A stretch of 64,000 nucleotides of DNA from assembly GCA_030390025.1 (NCBI GenBank), contig CM059432.1, positions 56,360,001-56,424,000 on the forward strand. The letters run 5' to 3'. A program made the position numbers and the translations under genes. The stretch's first letter is position 1. The number at the start of each line of letters is the position of its first letter. The notes beneath the pieces were generated by a model that was not told where the DNA came from, made no database searches, and saw only the letters and a program-made list of their open reading frames with translations. Of this stretch, positions 8,922-64,000 are shown piece by piece. Source of the DNA: Squalus acanthias (taxonomy: Eukaryota).

Positions 8922-9647
8922 GGGGCAGAAATTCGGCTGTTGTCGGGTGAGTACGCACTGTGTACTCACCCGTAGACGGAACGAAAGTGCCGGTTTCTTG
9001 CATGCGCGGGAAACCGGCACTTCCGTTCCCCTGAGGAAAGGGGTTCAGAGGTCGAATGCGCGTTCGCCTCGCACTTCGGATTTTTTTTTACAGGTTCCTC
9101 CGTGAAGGTAAGCATGGAGAAGATACACTTTTAAAAAGGATGCGCAAGGCCTTTTTTTTAACGAGGTAAGTGTTGATTTTATTAAAATTTAAACTTTTTT
9201 CACAGATTTATCTTTTTTAATCACTTTAAAGAAAGGTAAGTTTAGTTTCAGCCCCGTTAAAATTTAATTTTTTCAAAAATTAAAATTTTTGTTTAAAATA
9301 GTTAATTAATGTAATTTATAGTTATTTTAAAAATTTGATTTTAAAAAAATTTATTTGTAGTTTTAGGGATGTTTTGGGGCCGATCTGTATTCATAGATTT
9401 GACAGGTCCTGTCAAATCTATGAATGAAAGATGGTCTGCTGCCATTGGCTCTCCATGGCCCACGTGATCCTAGGGGACGCATCGCACTAACTACGCCCCT
9501 GGGATACACGAGCACTGCGCGCCGGCAGCCGCAGAAGGCCCAGGAGCCGAAGTCCCCGTGGGCCCAGAGGTCAACGGCAGGCGCGGTAGGTAGGTGCGCG
9601 CGCGATCCTTGCACCCACGGGAAGCCAGGGAGCTGAATTTCTGGCCC
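8922..9647. mobile_element. MITE with 17-bp TIRs and 3-bp TSD (PIF/Harbinger-like)
   Basis: TIRs GGGGCAGAAATTCGGCT and AGCTGAATTTCTGGCCC, ATG duplicated at 8919-8921 and 9648-9650. GC-rich ends with an AT-rich core. Confidence 0.85.
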
Positions 9648-25071: not shown

Positions 25072-26582
25072 TTCCTAAATTGCTAAGGGAATTGGGGGAG
25101 GAGATAGCGGAAGGGCTTGCCACAATTTTCCAATCTTCCCTAGATGTGGGGGGAAGTGCCTGAGGATTGGAAAATGGCAAATGTGACACCATTGTTCAAG
25201 AAAGGTTGTAAGGACAATCCTGGTAACTACAGGCCGGTCAGTTTAACATCGGTGGTGGGTAAAGTTTTAGAAACAATCAAGAAAAAATTAACGGGCACTT
25301 GGAGAGGTTTAAGCTAATTAAGGAGAACCAACACAGATTTGTAAAAGGCAGATCATGTTTGACTAATCTAATTGAATTTTTTGATGAAGTAACAGAGAGG
25401 ATTGATGAAGGGAATGCAATGGATGTTGTCTACATGGATTTTTGGAAGGCGTTTGACAAAGTACCACATAGAAGGCTGGTTAACAAAATTGAGGCTCATG
25501 GAATAGGTGGTCAGTGGCAGCTTGGATAAGAATTGTCTTAAGGACAGAAAACAGCGAGTTGTGGTAAATGGCTACTTTTCAGACAGGAGGATGGTAGACC
25601 GTGGTGTTCCCCAAGGGTCAGTGCTGGGGCCACTGCTTTTTTTGATGTATATATAAATGACCTGGATATTGGAATACAAAGTAGAATTTCTAAATTTGCC
25701 GATGACACCAAACTTGGGGGTGTGGCAAACAGTGAGGATGATAACAATCGACTGCAACAGGACATAGAAAGGCTAGCAGAATGGGCAGACAAGTGGCAGA
25801 TGGAATTTAATAGAGAAGTGTGAGGTGATGCATTTTGGCAGAAGGAACAGCAATATACACTTAATGGCACAGTTTTAAAGAGTGTGCAGGGACAGAGGGA
25901 CCTGGGAGTTAATGTGCATAGGTCCCTGAAGGTGGCGGGACATATTGAGAGAGTGGTTAACAAAGCATATGGGATCTTGGGCTTCATAAATAGAGGTATT
26001 GAGTACAAAAGTAGAGAAGTTATGCTGAACCTTTATAAGGCGCTGGTTAGGCTACAACTGGAGTATTGCGTCCAGTTTCTGGTCGCCACACTTTAGGAAG
26101 AATGTGAAGGCACTTGAGAGGGTGCAGAGGAGATTTACCAGAATGGTTCCGGGGATGGGGGATCTTGGCTACAAGGACAGGTTGGAGAAGCTGGATTTGT
26201 TTTCATTAGAGCAAAGGAGGTTGAGGGGTGATTTGATAGAGGTGTACAAGATTATGACTGGCTTGGAGAGGCTAGACTAGGAAAGGCTGTTCCCACTAGT
26301 TGATGGTACAAGGACTAGGGGACAGAGATTTAAGGTTTTGGGCAAGAGATACAGAGGGGATGTGAGGAAAAACTTTTTTACACAGCGAGTGGTGGTGATC
26401 AGTGGTGGAAGCGGAGACACTCCATGTTTTCAAGGGGAGATTGGATAGGCACTACAGGGAAATAAACTTGCAGGGCTACGGGGATAGAGCGGGGGAATGG
26501 GACCGACTGGATTGCTCTATAGAGAGCCGGCATGGACTCGATGGGCTGAATGGCCTCCTTCTGTGCTGTTATGACTCTCTAT
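25072..26582 (+). mobile_element. 5'-truncated degenerate CR1 (RT)
   Basis: RT fragments 25299-25529 and 25884-26096. TATGACTC tail at about 26570, continuing at 27226 after a MITE. Confidence 0.92.
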
Positions 26583-27225
26583 GGGGGAAAAATTGGGTTG
26601 CGCCCCGAAAAAATTAGCGCCCCCGCGCCTGAAATTCACTGGTAGCGCCACAAGAGGGAGGCGGGGCGCTACTGGAAGCGCCTCGCCTCCCTCTTGGGGC
26701 GCTGCGAGTGAATATCACCGGCGCTACGTGCCGCAGCGCCACGCTCAGCGGCATGTCGCGCCACGGTACTGCAGGCCTTCCTCCCCTTATTTGAAGGGGA
26801 GGGGCCTAGCGCAGCGTGACCCGGGGCCTAGCTGGGCCACCAGGGATCAGAGTGCCGGCAAAAGAGCCCGGCACTCGAGAAGTGCCGGGTTCACGGAGCG
26901 CAGCACAGAAGGCCGGGGACAGCAACGGAGGCAGGTGCTGGCAGGCGGCCAGCAACAATCGCCTTTAATTTGCGCAGCCCCGGCCGCAGGTAGGCCCCCC
27001 CTGACCCTGTCGGACATGGCATGTGGCGGTAAGTCAGGGGTCGCAGCCGGAGCGGGGCGCTGCGCACGACGATGATGTCATCGCCGGCGGCGCAGCGCCA
27101 CGAGGCGTTAACGGTTACCGTGCTGCTAACCTCCCGCTGAATTTCGTGGGAGGCATTGGCAGCGCTGCGCCCAGGCGCTAGTTGTTTTGCGCCCCGTTAG
27201 CGCCAGTCAACCGCACTTTCCCCCC
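26583..27225. mobile_element. GC-rich MITE with TAT TSD (family of 1416-2316)
   Basis: Ends GGGGGAAA and TTTCCCCC(C). TAT duplicated at 26580-26582 and 27226-27228 inside the CR1 tail. Confidence 0.8.
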
Positions 27226-28600
27226 TATGACTCCTGCCTCGATTTTGTAGCTTTAGTCACGCTTAACTTTTGAAACTCTAGGTTTCTACATTGCACCCGC
27301 ACGCCTAATCTCTGTAGCTTTAGCTGCACCAGTGCACTTCACTCTGACCTGAGCTCTCCACTGCTCGCTGGCTGCCTCTCCCTATGTTACCTCCTGCCCT
27401 GCTGCCTAATCTTCATTATTTTGGAGACACTGTTACTAATGAAATGGCAGATAGCTGCCCCGTTCCCTAATCGTCACGGATTTTCTCAGTGCTATGATCA
27501 CTTACATTATAAGTGTTTATAGCACTTGGAAAACCTGTAAAAATGAGGGAAGGAAAGACAGTGGCCTGGCATTTAAAAAAATGAAGTGTGGTGAAAGCTG
27601 CAAATATTAACAGTAGGGGTGTGAAGCTAAAAGCTCAGCAGAGAGAGCCAGCAGAAGGGAGAGGGATCTCGCAGAGGCCTTTGACCAGGGAGTGATGCTC
27701 TGATGGGCAACAAATCAGGGTTGGGAAACAAGTGGGATGCAGGCTTGTGGCAACTGGACAGCCTAATGTGTGGTGGGAAGCAGGATTGGGCATTTGAAGG
27801 TGTGGGGCAGAACTGGGATAAGGCAGCTGACTGCACTTCAACGGGAACAGATGGCAGGAAGACAGATGATTGCATTTTAAGTTTAAGTAATTTTATGGCG
27901 GTATCTTAAATTGAAGTAAATTTAAATTGAACTGGGACATGTACAAGTGTCCAGGTTTGTCAGTAGAGGACTTGAGAGAGATACAACTGAGGCGCAGATG
28001 CGCAACCTAATGTTGGGAGGACTAAAAGGTAAGTGTAATGATAATTATGGGTAGTTTAGAAAGGGGTGTGTGGAAGTGTGACCGGTGCAAAAGAATTTTA
28101 ATACAGGAAGTAAATGTGACAACAGGAAGTGCTGCTAGTCACAAGTTTTCATGTACTGTAGATGGTAACTTTTTTTTCAGATTGTTATTTCTTCTCATCT
28201 ATATCTTGTGTGCACTTCTATCATGCAAATTGCAAACATCTGATTTGGAGTACATTATTGATCAAGAGTGTAAAATTATCTCGCGTGTTATTCCATAAAT
28301 ACCATTAAAAACATCTTGCTGTTATTTTTGGTGGGTCTAAGTTGCACACATTATTAAAGCCCATTTTAAATTCAAGTACATGCTATTCTAAACATTCAGA
28401 ATGTTTTGTGGTTTGAATGTTATACCACTATTTTTGTACTCCTGGTCAACAATTGTTCTTTTTCCTCAAAATTAATTGAGTTTCTCCAAGTATTTGTTTC
28501 TGTCTAAATATACTGCTGTTTTTATCTATAAATCTAGAACTTTCAATCCCAAATCACGCTTAATTTTAAACTTGTTTTTGTTTTCTATACTACTTGAACT

Positions 28601-37649: not shown

Positions 37650-38196
37650 GTTACTTCCTGGATAAGGGAGGAGCTAACCAAATAAGGTACAGTTCAAAAT
37701 ATTAATCTTACACCCCCCCCAAAATAACAGCTAAACCTCAATTAAATTAAAAAAAAACCATCACATTAATAAAATAAGTATAGTTAAATAAATTAACCAT
37801 TTTAAATAAAAAATTAAATTTTTGAAAAAATTTAAAATCTTTTAAAAATAAACTTACCTGTCTTTAAAGTCTCTAAAAAAGATATACCTGTAAAAAAAAA
37901 AAAAAAATTCAAAAAAATACTTAATTCACTACTTACCTTGTTAAAAGTGGGTCTTACTCCTCCTTTTTACATTTCTAAAATCTTCAGTACTTACCTGCGC
38001 GTCCAAAGCATGAAGTGCACAGCGTGCGAGCAGCCTGTAGCGCGCACGCGATGCACCGAGGAACCGCCCCCTTTTCAAAAGAGCAATTGCCGGTTTTCAG
38101 CGCATGCGCAGGGCATGCAGAAAACCGGCAATTGCAGAGGGAATACGCGAGAGTACGCAGTGCGTACTCTCGCGCACCGCGATGAATTTTTGGGCC
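37650..38196. mobile_element. Partial MITE related to 8922-9647, in reverse orientation
   Basis: GAGTACGCAGTGCGTACTC and the CCGGTTTT..AAAACCGG hairpin, terminal GAATTTTTGGGCC, and an AT-rich core. Left end unclear. Confidence 0.65.
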
Positions 38197-39919: not shown

Positions 39920-40556
39920 GGGGTATCAGTTGGGGGCGGGACTGCTGGTTTTCGGGTTTCAGTCCCGCCTCCAGCGACGTCTGACCAACCCACGCTATTT
40001 TCCCTTGATTGACCTCGTTATGCCTGCCCAGCGTATGACACTTCATCTGTCTCTCATTTTTTGACAGATGAATTGTCAGCGTTTGACAGCTTTGAGAAGC
40101 TGTCAAACACTGACAATCTCTGTTGTAAGGTGAGCCCTTGCATAGAAGGCTCATCAAGACCTCTCTCCTCAGCAGAAAGCAGATGGCTGCTGCATCTGAG
40201 AATGCAGCAGCCATTCTGTCATCTCTGCCATTGAGATGAGGCACCTCCGTATCCTCAAAGGTTGAAGCCTGCAGGAAGAAGCAAAGGTAAGGAAACTTTC
40301 CAACACTCACCTCTCATACTTAACTGTCCACACTTGCACCCATCACTCACCTCTACATTTCGACCCCTCTCGCCCCTGCAGACCCACTGCTCGCCTCGCT
40401 GACTCTGGCGAGGTTCGCAGCCATCGGGAAGCCCGCAATTGCAGGCGTAAAATGGGGATAAGCCTCAAAACTGCCTGTTAACTACCTGTACCCGCTCCCA
40501 GTTTCTGCCATTTTCCCGGCAGACCCTGCCTCCCCAGGGCTGGGAAAATTCCCCCC
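39920..40556. mobile_element. Probable MITE remnant
   Basis: GC-rich ends with right terminus GGAAAATTCCCCCC resembling the MITE TIRs. Left TIR not clear. Confidence 0.45.
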
Positions 40557-59305: not shown

Positions 59306-61166
59306 ATGTGTTGCATCTTTTACCTCCACCATTTCCACTGTCCAGGGCTGGACTGGAAACAGCTACTTGAAGGTAAATCCGTGTCCGAGCAGTGGGAGGC
59401 ATTCAAGGAGGAGATAGTGAGGGTTCAGTGCAAATATGTTCCCACAAAGAAAAAGGGTGGGACTCTCAAATCTAGAGGCCCCTGGATGTCGAGGGGCATA
59501 TAGGGTAGGATAAGGCAAAAAAGGGAAACTTATGTCAGAAACCGAGGGCTCAATACTGCAGAAAGCCTAAAGAACTATATAAAGTGCAGGGGTGAAATTA
59601 AAAGGGAAATTAGGAAAGCAAAGAGAGGGCATGAAAAAATATTGGCAAGTAAAATCAAGGAAAACCCAAAGATGTTTTATAAATACATAAAGAGCAAGAG
59701 ATGAACTAAAGAAAGAGTAGGGCCCATTAGAGGCCAAAAAGGAAGCTTGTGTGTGGAGGCGGAAGACGTGGGTATGGTTCTTAATGAGTACTTTGCATCT
59801 GTCTTCACAAAAGAGAGGGACGATGCAGACATTGTAGTTAAGGAGGAGGAGTGTGAAATATTAGATGAGATAAACATAGTGAGAGAGGAAGTATTAAGGG
59901 GTTTAGCATCTTTGAACGTAGATAAATTGCCAGGCCCGGATGAAATGTATCCCAGGCTGTTAAGAGAAGCAAGGGAGGAAATAAAACAAAATAGTAAAAT
60001 ATTTTACAGGCACATCAATTTAAAAAAAGGAAGGTTGGGATGGGCATAGGGTCATTAAGGGATGGCAGGACAATACCACAGGTAACGATAGGGAGATTGG
60101 CACAAATATTAAATCATTATTTTGCTTCGGTATTTACCAGGGAGATAGAACAGGTGGACATGAGATTGAATAATGAGATGATTAATGAGAAGTGCATTTA
60201 AAATAGAAAAAAAGGGGGATATATTAAATAAACTAATCAAACTGAAAGAGGATAAAACCCCTGGTCCGGATGGATTGCATACACGCATTTTAAAAGAATC
60301 TAGGGAAGAGATCGCAGAGGCATTATTACACATATTTAATAATTCGTTAGAAAAAAGTGTAGTGCCAGAGGACTGGCAGATAGCTAATGTAATATATATA
60401 TTTAAGAAGTGGGATAGAACATGTCCAGGGAATTATAGACCAGTCAGCTTCACATCGGTGGTAGGAAAAATAATGGAATCCCTACTAAAGGAGAGAATAG
60501 AAGAACATCTAGAAACTAAAAGTATAATGATGAATAGTCAGCATGGATTTCAAAAGGGAAAATCTTGCTTGACCAACCTTATTGAATTTTTTGAAGAGGT
60601 AACAGAGAGAGTAGACAATGGTAATGCAGTAGATTTTCAAAAGGCCTTCGATAAGGTACCCCATAATAGATTAATGAATAAGGTCAGAGAATGCGGAGTC
60701 AGGGGACAAGTAGCAGAATGGATTGCTAGCTGGCTTCAAGACAGAATTGAGAGGTCGCACAACACCAGGTTATAGTCCAACAGTTTTATTTGAAATCACA
60801 GCTTTCGGAGCTATCGATTGCTCCTTCCTCAGGTGAAGTAAATTAGATACAGAATCGCCAAAGCATATATAGATAGAGAACAAAGCATGTGTACCTTACA
60901 ATTGCAGACCACTAAATTAAATCATCCTGACTATCTGCCGAGGTGTGATAAAGTTAATTAAGTCAGCCAGGAAGGTACCACATCAAAGACATAGCAAGAT
61001 ACAACTGAGACAATGAGGTGCAGTCGCAGGGGTTCTAACGTGTCAAAAGCTGCCGTCTGTATGTAAAACGAAAAGCTTTAAAATTTTTACTTTTTTACTG
61101 GGAAAATTTTTACTTTTTTACTGGGAATCACATCTGTGAACAAGCCAACGACGACTCGCGTCCGGA

Positions 61167-61931
61167 TCACGTCATGTATCGTGACATAAACCCAAGATCC
61201 CGGTTGAGACCGTCTTCATGAGTGCGGAACTTGGCTATCAGTTTCTGCTCGATGATTTTGCGTTGTCGTGTGTTTCTAAGGTTGCCTTGGAGAACGCTTA
61301 CCCGCAGATCCGAGGCTGAATGTCCTTGACTGCTGAAGTGTTCCCCGACTGGGAGGTAACAATCCTGCCTGGCGATTGTTGCGCGGTGCTCGTTCATACG
61401 TTGTCTCAGTGTCTGCATGGTCTCGCCGATGTACCATGCCGCGGTGCATTCTTTCCTGCAACGTATGAGGTAGACAACGTTGGCCGAGTCACATGAGTAT
61501 GTACCATGTACCTGGTGGGTAGTGTCCTCACGTGTGATGGTGGTATCTGTGTTGATGATCTGGCATGTCTTGCAGAGTTTGCCATGGCAGGGTTGTGTGG
61601 TGTCGTGGTCGCTGTTATCCTGAAAGCTGGGTAATTTGCTGCGAACGATGGTACTTCTGAGGTTAGGCGGCTGTTTGAAGGCAAGTAGTGGAGGCGTGGG
61701 GATGGCCATAGCGAGGTGTTTGTCGTCATCGATGACATGTTGAAGGCTGCGAAGAACATGGCGTAGTTTCTCCGCTCCGGGGAAGTACTGGACGACGTAG
61801 GGTACCCTGTTGGTTGTGTCCCGTGTTTGCCTTCTGAGGAGGTCTATGCGATTTTTCGCTGTGGCCCGTCGGAACTGTCGATCGATGAGTCGAGCGTCAT
61901 ATCCCGTTCTTACGAGGGCATTTTTCAGCGT
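61167..61931 (-). CDS. Penelope-like ORF C-terminus: RT thumb, Cys linker and GIY-YIG endonuclease (5'-truncated, open)
   Basis: The frame is open from the truncation point (TLKNALVRTGYD..). Contains PCHGKLCKTC, NVVYLIRC..C..YIGET..LRQRMNEH, VGEHF..H and R...E..LI..F...GLNRD. Confidence 0.9.
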   Translation of the reverse strand, partial: TLKNALVRTGYDARLIDRQFRRATAKNRIDLLRRQTRDTTNRVPYVVQYFPGAEKLRHVLRSLQHVIDDDKHLAMAIPTPPLLAFKQPPNLRSTIVRSKLPSFQDNSDHDTTQPCHGKLCKTCQIINTDTTITREDTTHQVHGTYSCDSANVVYLIRCRKECTAAWYIGETMQTLRQRMNEHRATIARQDCYLPVGEHFSSQGHSASDLRVSVLQGNLRNTRQRKIIEQKLIAKFRTHEDGLNRDLGFMSRYMT

Positions 61932-62166
61932 CCGTTTTACATACAGACAGCAGCTTTTGACACGTTAGAACCCCTGCGACTACACCTCATTGTCTCAGTT
62001 GTATCTTGCTATGTCTTTGATGTGGTACCTTCCTGGCTGACTTAATTAACTTTATCACACCTCGGCAGATAGTCAGGATGATTTAATTTAGTGGTCTGCA
62101 ATTGTAAGGTACACATGCTTTGTTCTCTATCTATATATGCTTTGGCGATTCTGTATCTAATTTACT

Positions 62167-62208
62167 TCACCTGAGGAAGGAGCAATCGATAGCTCCGAAA
62201 GCTTGTGA
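62167..62208 (+). ncRNA. Minimal type I hammerhead ribozyme motif in pLTR
   Basis: TCAC-CTGAGGA-AGGAGC-AATCGATA-GCTCC-GAAA-GC-TT-GTGA: conserved core, stems I and II, and a palindromic AAGCTT stem III. Confidence 0.8.
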
Positions 62209-62652
62209 TTTCAAATAAAACTGTTGGACTATAACCTGGTGTTGTGCGACCTCTCAATTTTGTCCACCCCAGTCCAACACCGGCATCTCCGCTTCAAGAC
62301 AGAAAGCAGAGAGTGGGAGTAAAGGGTAGCTATTCACAGTGGCAAAAGTTGGGTAGTGGTGTTCCACAAGGATCGGTGCTGGGACCACTGCTGTTCACAA
62401 TTTACATTAAACGATTTAGACTTTGGAATCAAAAACACAATTTCTAAATTTGCGGATGATACCAAATTGGGGGGGGATAGTCAATACTGAGGACTGCAAC
62501 AAATTACAGGAGGACATTAATAAACTTGCAGAATGGGCAAATAATTGGCAAATGAAGTTCAACACAGACAAATGTGAGGTATTACATTTTGGTAGGAAGA
62601 ATAGGGAGGTCACATCACTTGGAGGGTGTGAGTCTAGGTGGGGTATAACAAA

Positions 62653-62861
62653 TGTGAGAAGTCGCACAACACCAGGTTATAGTCCAACAGTTTTATTTGA
62701 AATCACGAGCTTTCGGAGCGCTGCTCCTTCATCAGGTCACTGACGAAGGAGCAGCGCTCCGAAAGCTTGTGATTTCAAATAAAACTGTTGGACTATAACC
62801 TGGTGTTGTGCGACTTCTCACATTTGTCCACCCCAGTCCAACACCGGCATCTCCACATCAT
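62653..62861. mobile_element. 209-bp palindromic pLTR-only Penelope derivative with two hammerhead cores
   Basis: Arms 62648-62735 and 62740-62827, a 4-nt spacer, tail to 62861, and a 12-bp TSD GGGTATAACAAA (62641-62652 and 62862-62873). Confidence 0.9.
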
Positions 62862-64000
62862 GGGTATAACAAAGGGATCTCTGAGTACAAATACACAAAT
62901 CACAAAGTTGCACCACAGGTTAGCAAGGCTATTAAATATGCAAACCAAGCACTAGGGTTTATTTCTGGAGGGATAGAATTGAAAATTAGGAAAGTTATGC
63001 TGAACCTGTATTGAACCTTGGTTAGACCACACTTCGAATACTGTGTACAGTCTGGTCACCATATTATAAAAAGGATATAGAGGCACTGGAGAGGGTGCAG
63101 AGAAGATTTACAAGGATGATACCAGAAATGCGAGGGGATATATTATCAGGAAAGGATGAACAGGCTGGGTCTCTTTTCTCTTGAAAAAAGAAGGCTGAGG
63201 GGTGACCTAATAGAGGTCTATAAAATTATGAGGTTTTGATAGTGGATACAGGGAGAATGTTTCCACTTGTGGGGAAGAGCATAACTAGAGGCCATCAATA
63301 TAAGATAGTCACCAAGAAATCCAATAGGAAATTCAGAAGAAACTTCTTCACCCAAAGAGTGGTGAGAATGTAGAACTCACTACCACAGGGAGTGGTTGAA
63401 GCGAATAATATAGATGCATTTAAGGGGAGGCTGGACAAACATCTGAGGGAGAAGGGAATAGAGGGTTATGCTGATAGATTTAGATGAGGAAAGACGAGAG
63501 GAGGCGCGAGTGGGGCATAAACACCGGCATGGACTAGTTGGGCCGAATGGCCTGTTTCTGTGCCGTTCATCCTATGAAATAGCAGAGGCTCTGACCATCA
63601 TTTTTCAATCCTCTTTGGTTACAGGTGTGGTACTGGAGGACTGCTAACGTTGTACCGTTGTTTAAAAAGGGAGAAAGAGATAGACCGAGTAATTAAAGGC
63701 CAGTCAGCCTAACCTCGGTGGTGGGCAAATTGTTGGAAAAAAATTCTGAGGGGCAGTATTATTCGTCATTTAGAAAGGCACAGATTAATAAAAGACAGTC
63801 GGCATGGACTTGTTAAGGGAAGGTCGTGTCTGACTAACTTGATTGAATTTTTTGAGGAGGTAACAAGGAGAGTTGATGAGGGTAGTGTGTTTGATGTAGT
63901 CTACATGGATTTCAGCAAGGCCTTTGACAAGGTCCCACATGGCAGACTGGTCAGAAAAGTCAAAGCCCATGGGATCCAAGGGAAAGTGGCAAGTTGGATC

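What the first reader, a model, noticed from the sequence alone, without database searches (positions are those of the whole stretch)
62641..62873. 209-bp palindromic mini-Penelope made only of two back-to-back hammerhead pLTR ends plus tail
Seen: near-perfect inverted arms of about 88 bp around a GTCA spacer. Each arm starts exactly at a hammerhead core (CTGACGA..GAAAGCTT on +, CTGATGA..GAAAGCTC on -). It has its own 12-bp TSD and a 5-nt ACAAA overlap between target and arm. The inversion point removes most of the 5' strand of stem I, so both ribozymes may be crippled. Established: Penelope-like elements carry minimal hammerheads and form inverted pLTRs. Inference: this is either an extreme truncation product or a non-autonomous hairpin family mobilised in trans. 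As intronic RNA it would form a long dsRNA hairpin.
Basis: partly seen in the sequence, partly recalled or inferred. Interest (0 to 1): 0.7.

Follow-up and report, generated by a model that had tools for sequence, protein, structure and literature searches.

The report
Mirror-image Penelope retrotransposon stub in shark
This 209-base palindrome is a real but ordinary stub of a very common Penelope-type jumping gene in a likely shark genome, pasted beside its own mirror image in an already described pattern; it was likely built on the spot from two short DNA copies of the element's RNA front end, and its ribozymes are predicted to be locked in a hairpin.

Summary
Observation confirmed: 88-nt arms (98%), 4-nt spacer, 34-nt tail and 12-bp TSD, inserted into a CR1-type LINE. 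It is the shortest form of the known Penelope-like (PLE) insertion: tail-less inverted copy plus tailed copy. A sister insertion 350 bp away has the same two ends but very unequal arms (about 1,190 and 360 nt) and carries the endonuclease end of the ORF. Contigs of public runs show an abundant family, at least four other junction forms at the hammerhead core and single junctions scattered upstream. This favours a product rebuilt at each insertion over an inherited hairpin family, but the copy number of the exact GTCA junction could not be counted. Likely mechanism (inferred): both nicked target strands prime at the two internal RT start sites and both cDNAs run off an RNA 5' end just before the core, where a TATA plus initiator motif points. 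The hairpin is predicted to exclude the ribozyme fold by about 40 kcal/mol. 'Intronic' was not shown. The scan has noted such palindromes before (70 notes, at least 11 genomes). Low novelty.

The parts
62641..62652 (.). left copy of the 12-bp TSD; its last 5 nt (ACAAA) double as the end of the left arm
   Evidence: differs from the paralogous LINE consensus and is duplicated (table 7)
62648..62735 (-). left arm: tail-less inverted PLE copy, from the hammerhead core to the internal end site
62707..62735 (-). minimal type I hammerhead core and stem II; predicted cleavage triplet CUC (inferred); 2 native stem I pairs left
   Evidence: motif compared with PMC4209133
62736..62739 (.). head-to-head junction GTCA; the family sequence upstream of the core is ..CTTCACTTCAC
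   Evidence: tables 4, 7
62740..62827 (+). right arm: direct PLE copy from the hammerhead core
62740..62768 (+). minimal type I hammerhead core and stem II; predicted triplet CUU (inferred); stem I out of register
62828..62861 (+). 34-nt PLE 'tail', present at this end only; family contigs end at 62861-62863 into unrelated flanks
   Evidence: 63, 68 and 68 contigs, agreement 0.37-0.38
62862..62873 (.). right copy of the TSD; the first GG may also be element-derived
59984..63580 (+). decayed CR1-type LINE (approximate limits; family label recalled), host of both PLE insertions; RT-region similarity continues across the insertion
60747..62290 (.). sister PLE insertion, 1,544 nt, 14-bp TSD (60733-60746, 62291-62304): tail-less inverted copy (60747 to about 61934, - strand) plus tailed copy (61933-62290, + strand)
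61170..61934 (-). 3' end of the PLE ORF: C-x4-C-x2-C motif and GIY-YIG endonuclease, 88% identical to an RT-bearing shark protein
   Evidence: (E 0.00034, 21.3 bits, under the 22.6 cut-off)
62132..62168 (+). TATA-like TATATAT (62132) and initiator match TTACTTC with A+1 at 62164, 7 nt before the core, in the sister's pLTR: predicted RNA start

Best explanation
This is a single, dead insertion of an abundant endonuclease-bearing Penelope-like retrotransposon (likely Neptune type) in the known 'inverted tail-less copy plus tailed copy' layout, likely built at the site from two short cDNAs rather than copied as a ready-made hairpin. Shown: anatomy, TSD, host LINE, sister insertion with the same ends, varied junctions among copies. 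Inferred steps: (1) staggered nicks 12 nt apart free two 3' ends; (2) the top-strand end, which can pair 11 nt with the RNA at the internal start site, primes the tail-less arm, and the bottom-strand end primes at the tail end; (3) both cDNAs stop within a few nt of the hammerhead core, likely by running off the 5' end of an RNA that starts 2-7 nt before it; (4) the two cDNA ends are joined with loss of a base or two. If read through on either strand, the RNA is predicted to fold into an 88-bp hairpin that excludes the hammerhead fold, so it would not self-cleave.
For: Same two ends in the sister, whose arms are about 1,190 and 360 nt. Layout described for EN+ PLEs (PMC8557442, PMC3846280, passages); the tail equals the stretch between two RT start sites, and both strands are cut and extended in vitro (PMC11167929, parts 1-2 of 4). 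Six indel rows at 62735-62739, at least four distinct junction forms, depth 28-322; one X17 contig with a palindrome centred inside the core of another subfamily; 4 of 13 listed joints upstream change strand, each in one contig at a different place. TATA plus initiator 7 nt before the core, background 0.05-0.1% of positions (post hoc); one junction variant (+GTGAA) extends the left arm by exactly these 7 nt and is followed by C, as a copied cap G would give (cap G in L1: PMC9341517, passages). Primer-template duplex -12.1 kcal/mol, top 2.3% of 8,000 window 14-mers. Summed depth 5-8 million over the arm against 0.5-1.6 million over the upstream UTR in X1 and X2. Hairpin beats the open-core fold by 42.6 (+) and 40.0 (-) kcal/mol.
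Against: In X2 the listed variants explain at most 714 of 3,195 depth at 62735; the rest may be many rare forms or many exact GTCA copies. Depth is not copy number, the two lay-ups used different likeness (85, 88), and subfamily divergence upstream could give the same drop. The sister's primer-template duplex is ordinary (-6.0, 23rd percentile), and PMC11167929 reports initiation without homology to the target. The junction here lacks a C and fits a cap G on only one reading. The D. virilis Penelope promoter is internal and TATA-less (PMC2377424, passages). The arms differ only at two CpG-type sites, which does not tell one template from two. No RNA start was observed; all runs are contigs.
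Confidence: 0.58

Rival explanations
1. Fold-back self-priming: one strand was made, folded back at the core and was copied on itself into the mirror arm (self-priming was proposed for PLE palindromic junctions in PMC3846280).
For: Arms identical apart from two CpG-type changes (2 of 10 CpG sites, 0 elsewhere); near-symmetric junction; both arms carry the same minority base A62822 (T in 58-68% of depth).
Against: The tail-less arm ends at the same site as in the long sister and overlaps the target by 5 nt, as expected of a separate priming event; the GTCA spacer is not the product of the obvious TCA/TGA snap-back (by inspection); T62768/C is also a family polymorphism (C in about 30% of depth).
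Confidence: 0.15
2. Chance double truncation: both halves are ordinary random 5' truncations that happened to stop at the core; no preferred stop.
For: Junctions are scattered upstream; summed depth across core-adjacent junctions is about one thousandth of arm depth (992 and 2,629 against millions).
Against: Several different junction forms within 0-7 nt of the core, some above single-locus depth (up to 286 against about 15-40 for rare joints), and a core-centred palindrome in a second subfamily.
Confidence: 0.14
3. A non-autonomous hairpin family: a master palindrome is transcribed and copied whole in trans, so the GTCA junction is inherited.
For: Most depth across the junction in X2 is not assigned to a listed indel, and depth at 62737 (3,427) barely exceeds that at 62735 (3,195), so the C-less TCA-CTGA form seems tied to palindromes. 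pLTR sequences suffice for mobilisation in trans (PMC3846280, passage).
Against: Junction forms vary; the left end equals the internal start site used by long copies, which a whole-hairpin copy has no reason to reproduce; RT would have to cross an 88-bp duplex; the predicted TATA and initiator are absent from the stub.
Confidence: 0.1
4. Assembly or library artefact (fold-back chimera).
For: No listed contig spans the whole stretch (note in table 1).
Against: Locus-specific 12-bp TSD, one-sided tail, two CpG-type arm differences, and junction-crossing contigs in three of four runs.
Confidence: 0.02

Closest known systems
Complex insertions of EN+ Penelope-like elements: inverted 5'-truncated copy, one-sided 30-40-bp tail, TSD (PMC8557442, PMC3846280, PMC2377424; passages read)
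   Same: Head-to-head inverted copy, 34-nt tail at one end, TSD, hammerhead in the pLTR, GIY-YIG ORF end in the sister.
   Different: Both halves are cut down to the core, so no ORF or promoter remains; those passages do not describe a stop point at the core.
Dual minimal hammerheads on opposite strands, 100-700 bp apart, from truncated PLEs (PMC4209133, Results and Discussion read)
   Same: Minimal type I motif with extra nucleotide after position 9, G10.1-C11.1, palindromic AGCT in place of stem III, short helix I; two motifs on opposite strands.
   Different: Here the two cores are 4 nt apart and stem I is damaged; helix II is 5 bp rather than 7-8.
Anolis Poseidon PAc in vitro (PMC11167929, parts 1-2 of 4 read)
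   Same: Two internal RT start sites that define the tail; both strands cut and extended; hammerhead cleavage not needed for insertion.
   Different: PAc initiates without target homology, while this site offers 11 nt of pairing; this family bears a Neptune-like cysteine motif.
Non-LTR retrozymes (10.64898/2026.07.22.740005, part 1 of 5 and passages read)
   Same: Short, non-coding, PLE-derived, hammerhead-bearing.
   Different: Retrozymes are head-to-tail tandems whose two ribozymes lie on one strand; this is head-to-head with one damaged core per strand.
L1 twin priming (recalled; not read here)
   Same: Two target ends prime two cDNAs, giving a 5' inversion with a TSD.
   Different: In L1 the second primer lands upstream on the RNA, so the parts do not overlap; here both arms copy the same stretch.

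Membership tests
EN+ Penelope-like element insertion | Sequence belongs to a family with RT plus GIY-YIG ORF | tested here: met
   Arms 86-90% identical to the sister's ends; sister ORF end has a GIY-YIG hit and is 88% identical to P0001, which carries PF00078. The stub itself has no ORF.
EN+ Penelope-like element insertion | Inverted 5'-truncated copy adjacent to the direct copy | tested here: met
EN+ Penelope-like element insertion | 30-40-bp tail at one end only | tested here: met
   34 nt, 62828-62861
EN+ Penelope-like element insertion | Target-site duplication | tested here: met
   12 bp, locus-specific variant duplicated
Neptune/Nematis clade | Zn-finger-like cysteine motif between RT and EN | tested here: met
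   CHGKLCKTC in the sister ORF; feature named in PMC8557442; exact spacing recalled
Neptune/Nematis clade | RT phylogeny | not tested
   no RT domain of this element in the window; no tree built
Minimal type I hammerhead | Core CUGANGA/GAAA, extra nt after 9, G10.1-C11.1, palindromic 15.1-16.1, UH | tested here: met
   against PMC4209133; no Rfam match
Minimal type I hammerhead | Helix I of 4-5 bp closing the core | tested here: not met
   left arm 2 native pairs then G.G; right arm first two positions unpaired; sister copy 4 of 4
Minimal type I hammerhead | Self-cleavage | not testable with these tools
   predicted excluded by 40-43 kcal/mol in read-through RNA
Non-LTR retrozyme | Head-to-tail tandem units with a complete hammerhead in each | tested here: not met
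   head-to-head, opposite strands
Non-autonomous hairpin family | Many dispersed copies with one inherited junction | tested here: inconclusive
   at least four other junction forms, but a large unassigned share of junction depth; no genome to count

The most novel reading that the evidence does not exclude
The C-less GTCA junction is shared by tens of dispersed loci that descend from one master: a 209-nt fold-back retroelement that a Penelope-like RT copies whole through its own 88-bp RNA duplex, a MITE-like hairpin family that moves through RNA and may also feed siRNAs against its parent.
Probability: 0.1. Interest if true: 0.55.

Novelty: new member of a known kind. Interest (0 to 1): 0.22.

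Why it matters
As a locus it matters little: it is one of many dead stubs. As a record it bears on an open point that PMC8557442 names, how PLEs make their inverted ends and tail. If both arms are run-off copies from two target primers, the stubs map the element's RNA start and make two-sided priming testable in the existing in vitro system. Inverted Penelope copies are tied to siRNAs in Drosophila (PMC3681739, passages), so transcribed stubs could add to silencing, but nothing here shows that this one is transcribed.

Tried and rejected
Whole-genome census: no genome held. Rfam at E<=1: 5 matches, none a hammerhead, none at this locus. Arm motif in metagenome, viral and GTDB contigs: 0 matches each. 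Palindromic-junction pattern in metagenome contigs: 2 loci; both rejected on reading, L001 is GC-rich bacterial-looking coding sequence and L002 a bacterial-looking hairpin after a gene end, neither with arm or tail. Host gene: a splice-site scan gave 8 weak exon candidates; 145 of 206 ORFs of 50 aa or more in non-repeat segments were scanned, 1 weak Pfam hit below cut-off; short exons would be missed. A-to-I reading of the two arm differences: set aside, both sit at CpG sites. Hammerhead cleavage as the cause of the truncation: rejected, since each arm runs 29 nt past the predicted cut site to the core. Our-findings look-up by sequence: nothing. Literature: searches listed no paper whose title or abstract start describes core-centred PLE palindromes in sharks or twin priming of PLEs; subscription papers and Repbase/Dfam were not searchable, and no supplements were read (those of PMC4209133 and PMC11167929 may hold relevant examples).

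Full report
Observation. The palindrome is there as described: arms 62648-62735 and 62740-62827 (88 nt, 98%), spacer GTCA, direct repeat GGGTATAACAAA at 62641-62652 and 62862-62873, 209 nt between them, fold -172.7 kcal/mol with z -28. Each arm begins at a CTGANGA..GAAAGCTH core (3 hits in the window, 0.19 expected). The right arm continues into a 34-nt stretch that the left arm lacks. The arms differ at two places, both C/T at CpG sites, 2 of 10 such sites.

Setting. About 46% of the window is repeated within it, mostly RT-coding LINE fragments (the CR1 label is recalled from the sequence type). The insertion splits such a LINE: both flanks match neighbouring parts of other copies, and contigs of uninterrupted paralogues join at 62868 with GGTGGGGTAGAGG before it, whereas this locus has a private variant on both sides, so the duplication followed the mutation and is a true TSD. 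No host exon was found; 'intronic' is unshown. Protein hits (88% to Heptranchias perlo, 80-82% to Mustelus and Scyliorhinus) make a shark likely.

The sister insertion. At 60747-62290, in the same LINE, lies a 1,544-nt insertion with a 14-bp TSD. Its left part is an inverted, tail-less copy running from the end of an ORF through the UTR and hammerhead to the same end site as the finding's left arm; its right part is a tailed direct copy from 61933. The ORF piece has a sub-threshold GIY-YIG hit, is 88% identical to an RT-bearing protein and has a C-x4-C-x2-C motif before the nuclease, the linker feature given for Neptune and Nematis (PMC8557442, passages). My first guess was Poseidon; earlier notes prompted this check; no tree was built. 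So the finding has the same two ends as an ordinary long inverted insertion and differs only in where the halves meet.

Other copies. One run search gave 21 runs, all contigs; 6 were laid. On 62722-62910, 11,426, 15,308, 1,341 and 124 contigs were laid from X1, X2, X6 and X17 (X1 about 55% read). Contigs leave the tail at 62861-62863 into unrelated flanks and arrive at 62740 mostly from ..CTTCACTTCAC. Some cross the junction into an inverted arm: depth 992 (X1), 2,629 (X2), 7.7 (X6), 0 (X17) at 62729-62735, against 5-8 million over the arm in X1 and X2. Six indel rows sit at 62735-62739; in X1 the +C row (313.7) equals the +AC and +T rows together (285.7 + 28), so there are at least four other forms. 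One X17 contig holds a palindrome centred inside the core of a subfamily with another stem II. On the sister's continuous strand (60796-61930), 4 of 13 listed joints change strand, each in one contig and at a different place, and depth over the upstream UTR is 0.45-0.78 million (X1) and 0.68-1.59 million (X2). Against my reading: in X2 the listed variants cover at most 714 of 3,195 depth at 62735; the rest may be rare forms, overlapping contigs or exact GTCA copies. The tool states that depth is no copy number, tables were cut (282 and 901 loose-end rows not shown), and upstream divergence between subfamilies could mimic a drop.

Ribozyme. The motif matches the minimal type I hammerhead of PMC4209133 (Results and Discussion read): extra A after position 9, G10.1-C11.1, AGCT palindrome in place of stem III. 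Rfam does not detect it. The intact sister has a 4-bp helix I; the finding's left arm keeps 2 native pairs and the right arm is out of register. Forcing the core open with stem II formed costs 42.6 (+) and 40.0 (-) kcal/mol. Single minimal motifs did not cleave in vitro. The arms run 29 nt past the predicted cut site, so cleavage did not set the truncation.

Mechanism. In the Anolis element the protein cuts and extends both strands and starts at two internal sites that define the tail (PMC11167929, parts 1-2 of 4). Applied here (inference): the top-strand 3' end TGGGGTATAACAAA can pair 6+5 nt with the RNA at the internal site (-12.1 kcal/mol with RNA parameters, top 2.3% of 8,000 window 14-mers, 2.6% of 3,526 host-LINE 14-mers; the sister's site is ordinary, 23%) and primes the tail-less arm; the bottom-strand end primes at the tail. 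Why both stop at the core: the sister's pLTR has TATATAT at 62132 and an initiator match with A+1 at 62164, 7 nt before the core (background 0.05-0.1% of positions, post hoc; a second initiator match has A+1 at 62159). A TATA plus initiator was also noted in rotifer pLTRs (PMC3846280, passage), whereas D. virilis Penelope is TATA-less (PMC2377424). One junction variant extends the left arm by exactly these 7 nt followed by C, and the finding's minus strand reads G-AC-CTGA; both fit a copied cap G (known for L1, PMC9341517), but the finding's junction also reads as TCA-CTGA with a lost C. I had noted the run-off idea before seeing earlier notes; the cap reading came from those notes, which are unreviewed leads and not support.

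What is known. The layout is described for EN+ PLEs, and paired opposite-strand minimal hammerheads from truncated PLEs were reported in 2014. It is not a retrozyme (no tandem). Seven searches listed no paper on core-centred palindromes or PLE twin priming, within the library's limits. The scan itself has 70 notes with these words in at least 11 genomes and several in this genome.

Verdict. Real, a new member of a known kind, probably inert. Identity as a PLE inverted stub about 0.9; the twin-primed run-off mechanism about 0.58; inherited hairpin family about 0.1. Interest 0.22.

Noticed in passing
window 60747-62290: Sister PLE insertion with asymmetric inverted arms, 14-bp TSD, GIY-YIG ORF end and a predicted TATA plus initiator; its left hammerhead has lost one T of the cleavage triplet region.
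   Followed up: yes
window 59984-63580: Two independent PLE insertions 350 bp apart in one LINE copy, in the same orientation, and no other copy of this family in the 64 kb; chance or local preference not tested.
   Followed up: partly
window 62812-62861: The arm end and tail read like a 3' splice site (pyrimidine run, CCCCAG) followed 20 nt later by ATG; contigs suggest the family continues ATGGCTAC. Possible 5'-UTR intron as in D. virilis Penelope; not tested.
   Followed up: no
window 61075-61130: Short duplicated A/T-rich unit (TTTTTACTGGGAA..) between the PLE stop codon and the pLTR; contigs show A-run loose ends at 61086-61087.
   Followed up: no
window 26630-26717, 40072-40117, 8978-9029, 38083-38135, 9389-9425: Other short inverted repeats (18-41-nt arms) without the hammerhead motif; perhaps MITE-like remnants.
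   Followed up: no
window 26001-28000: GC-rich stretch (0.53 against about 0.43), possible CpG island or promoter.
   Followed up: no
P0007, P0011-P0014, P0017: Several annotated shark host proteins carry pieces of this PLE ORF: exonised fragments or annotation errors.
   Followed up: no
L002:141-231: Long perfect hairpin right after a gene end in a bacterial-looking contig; unrelated to the finding, perhaps an assembly fold-back.
   Followed up: no
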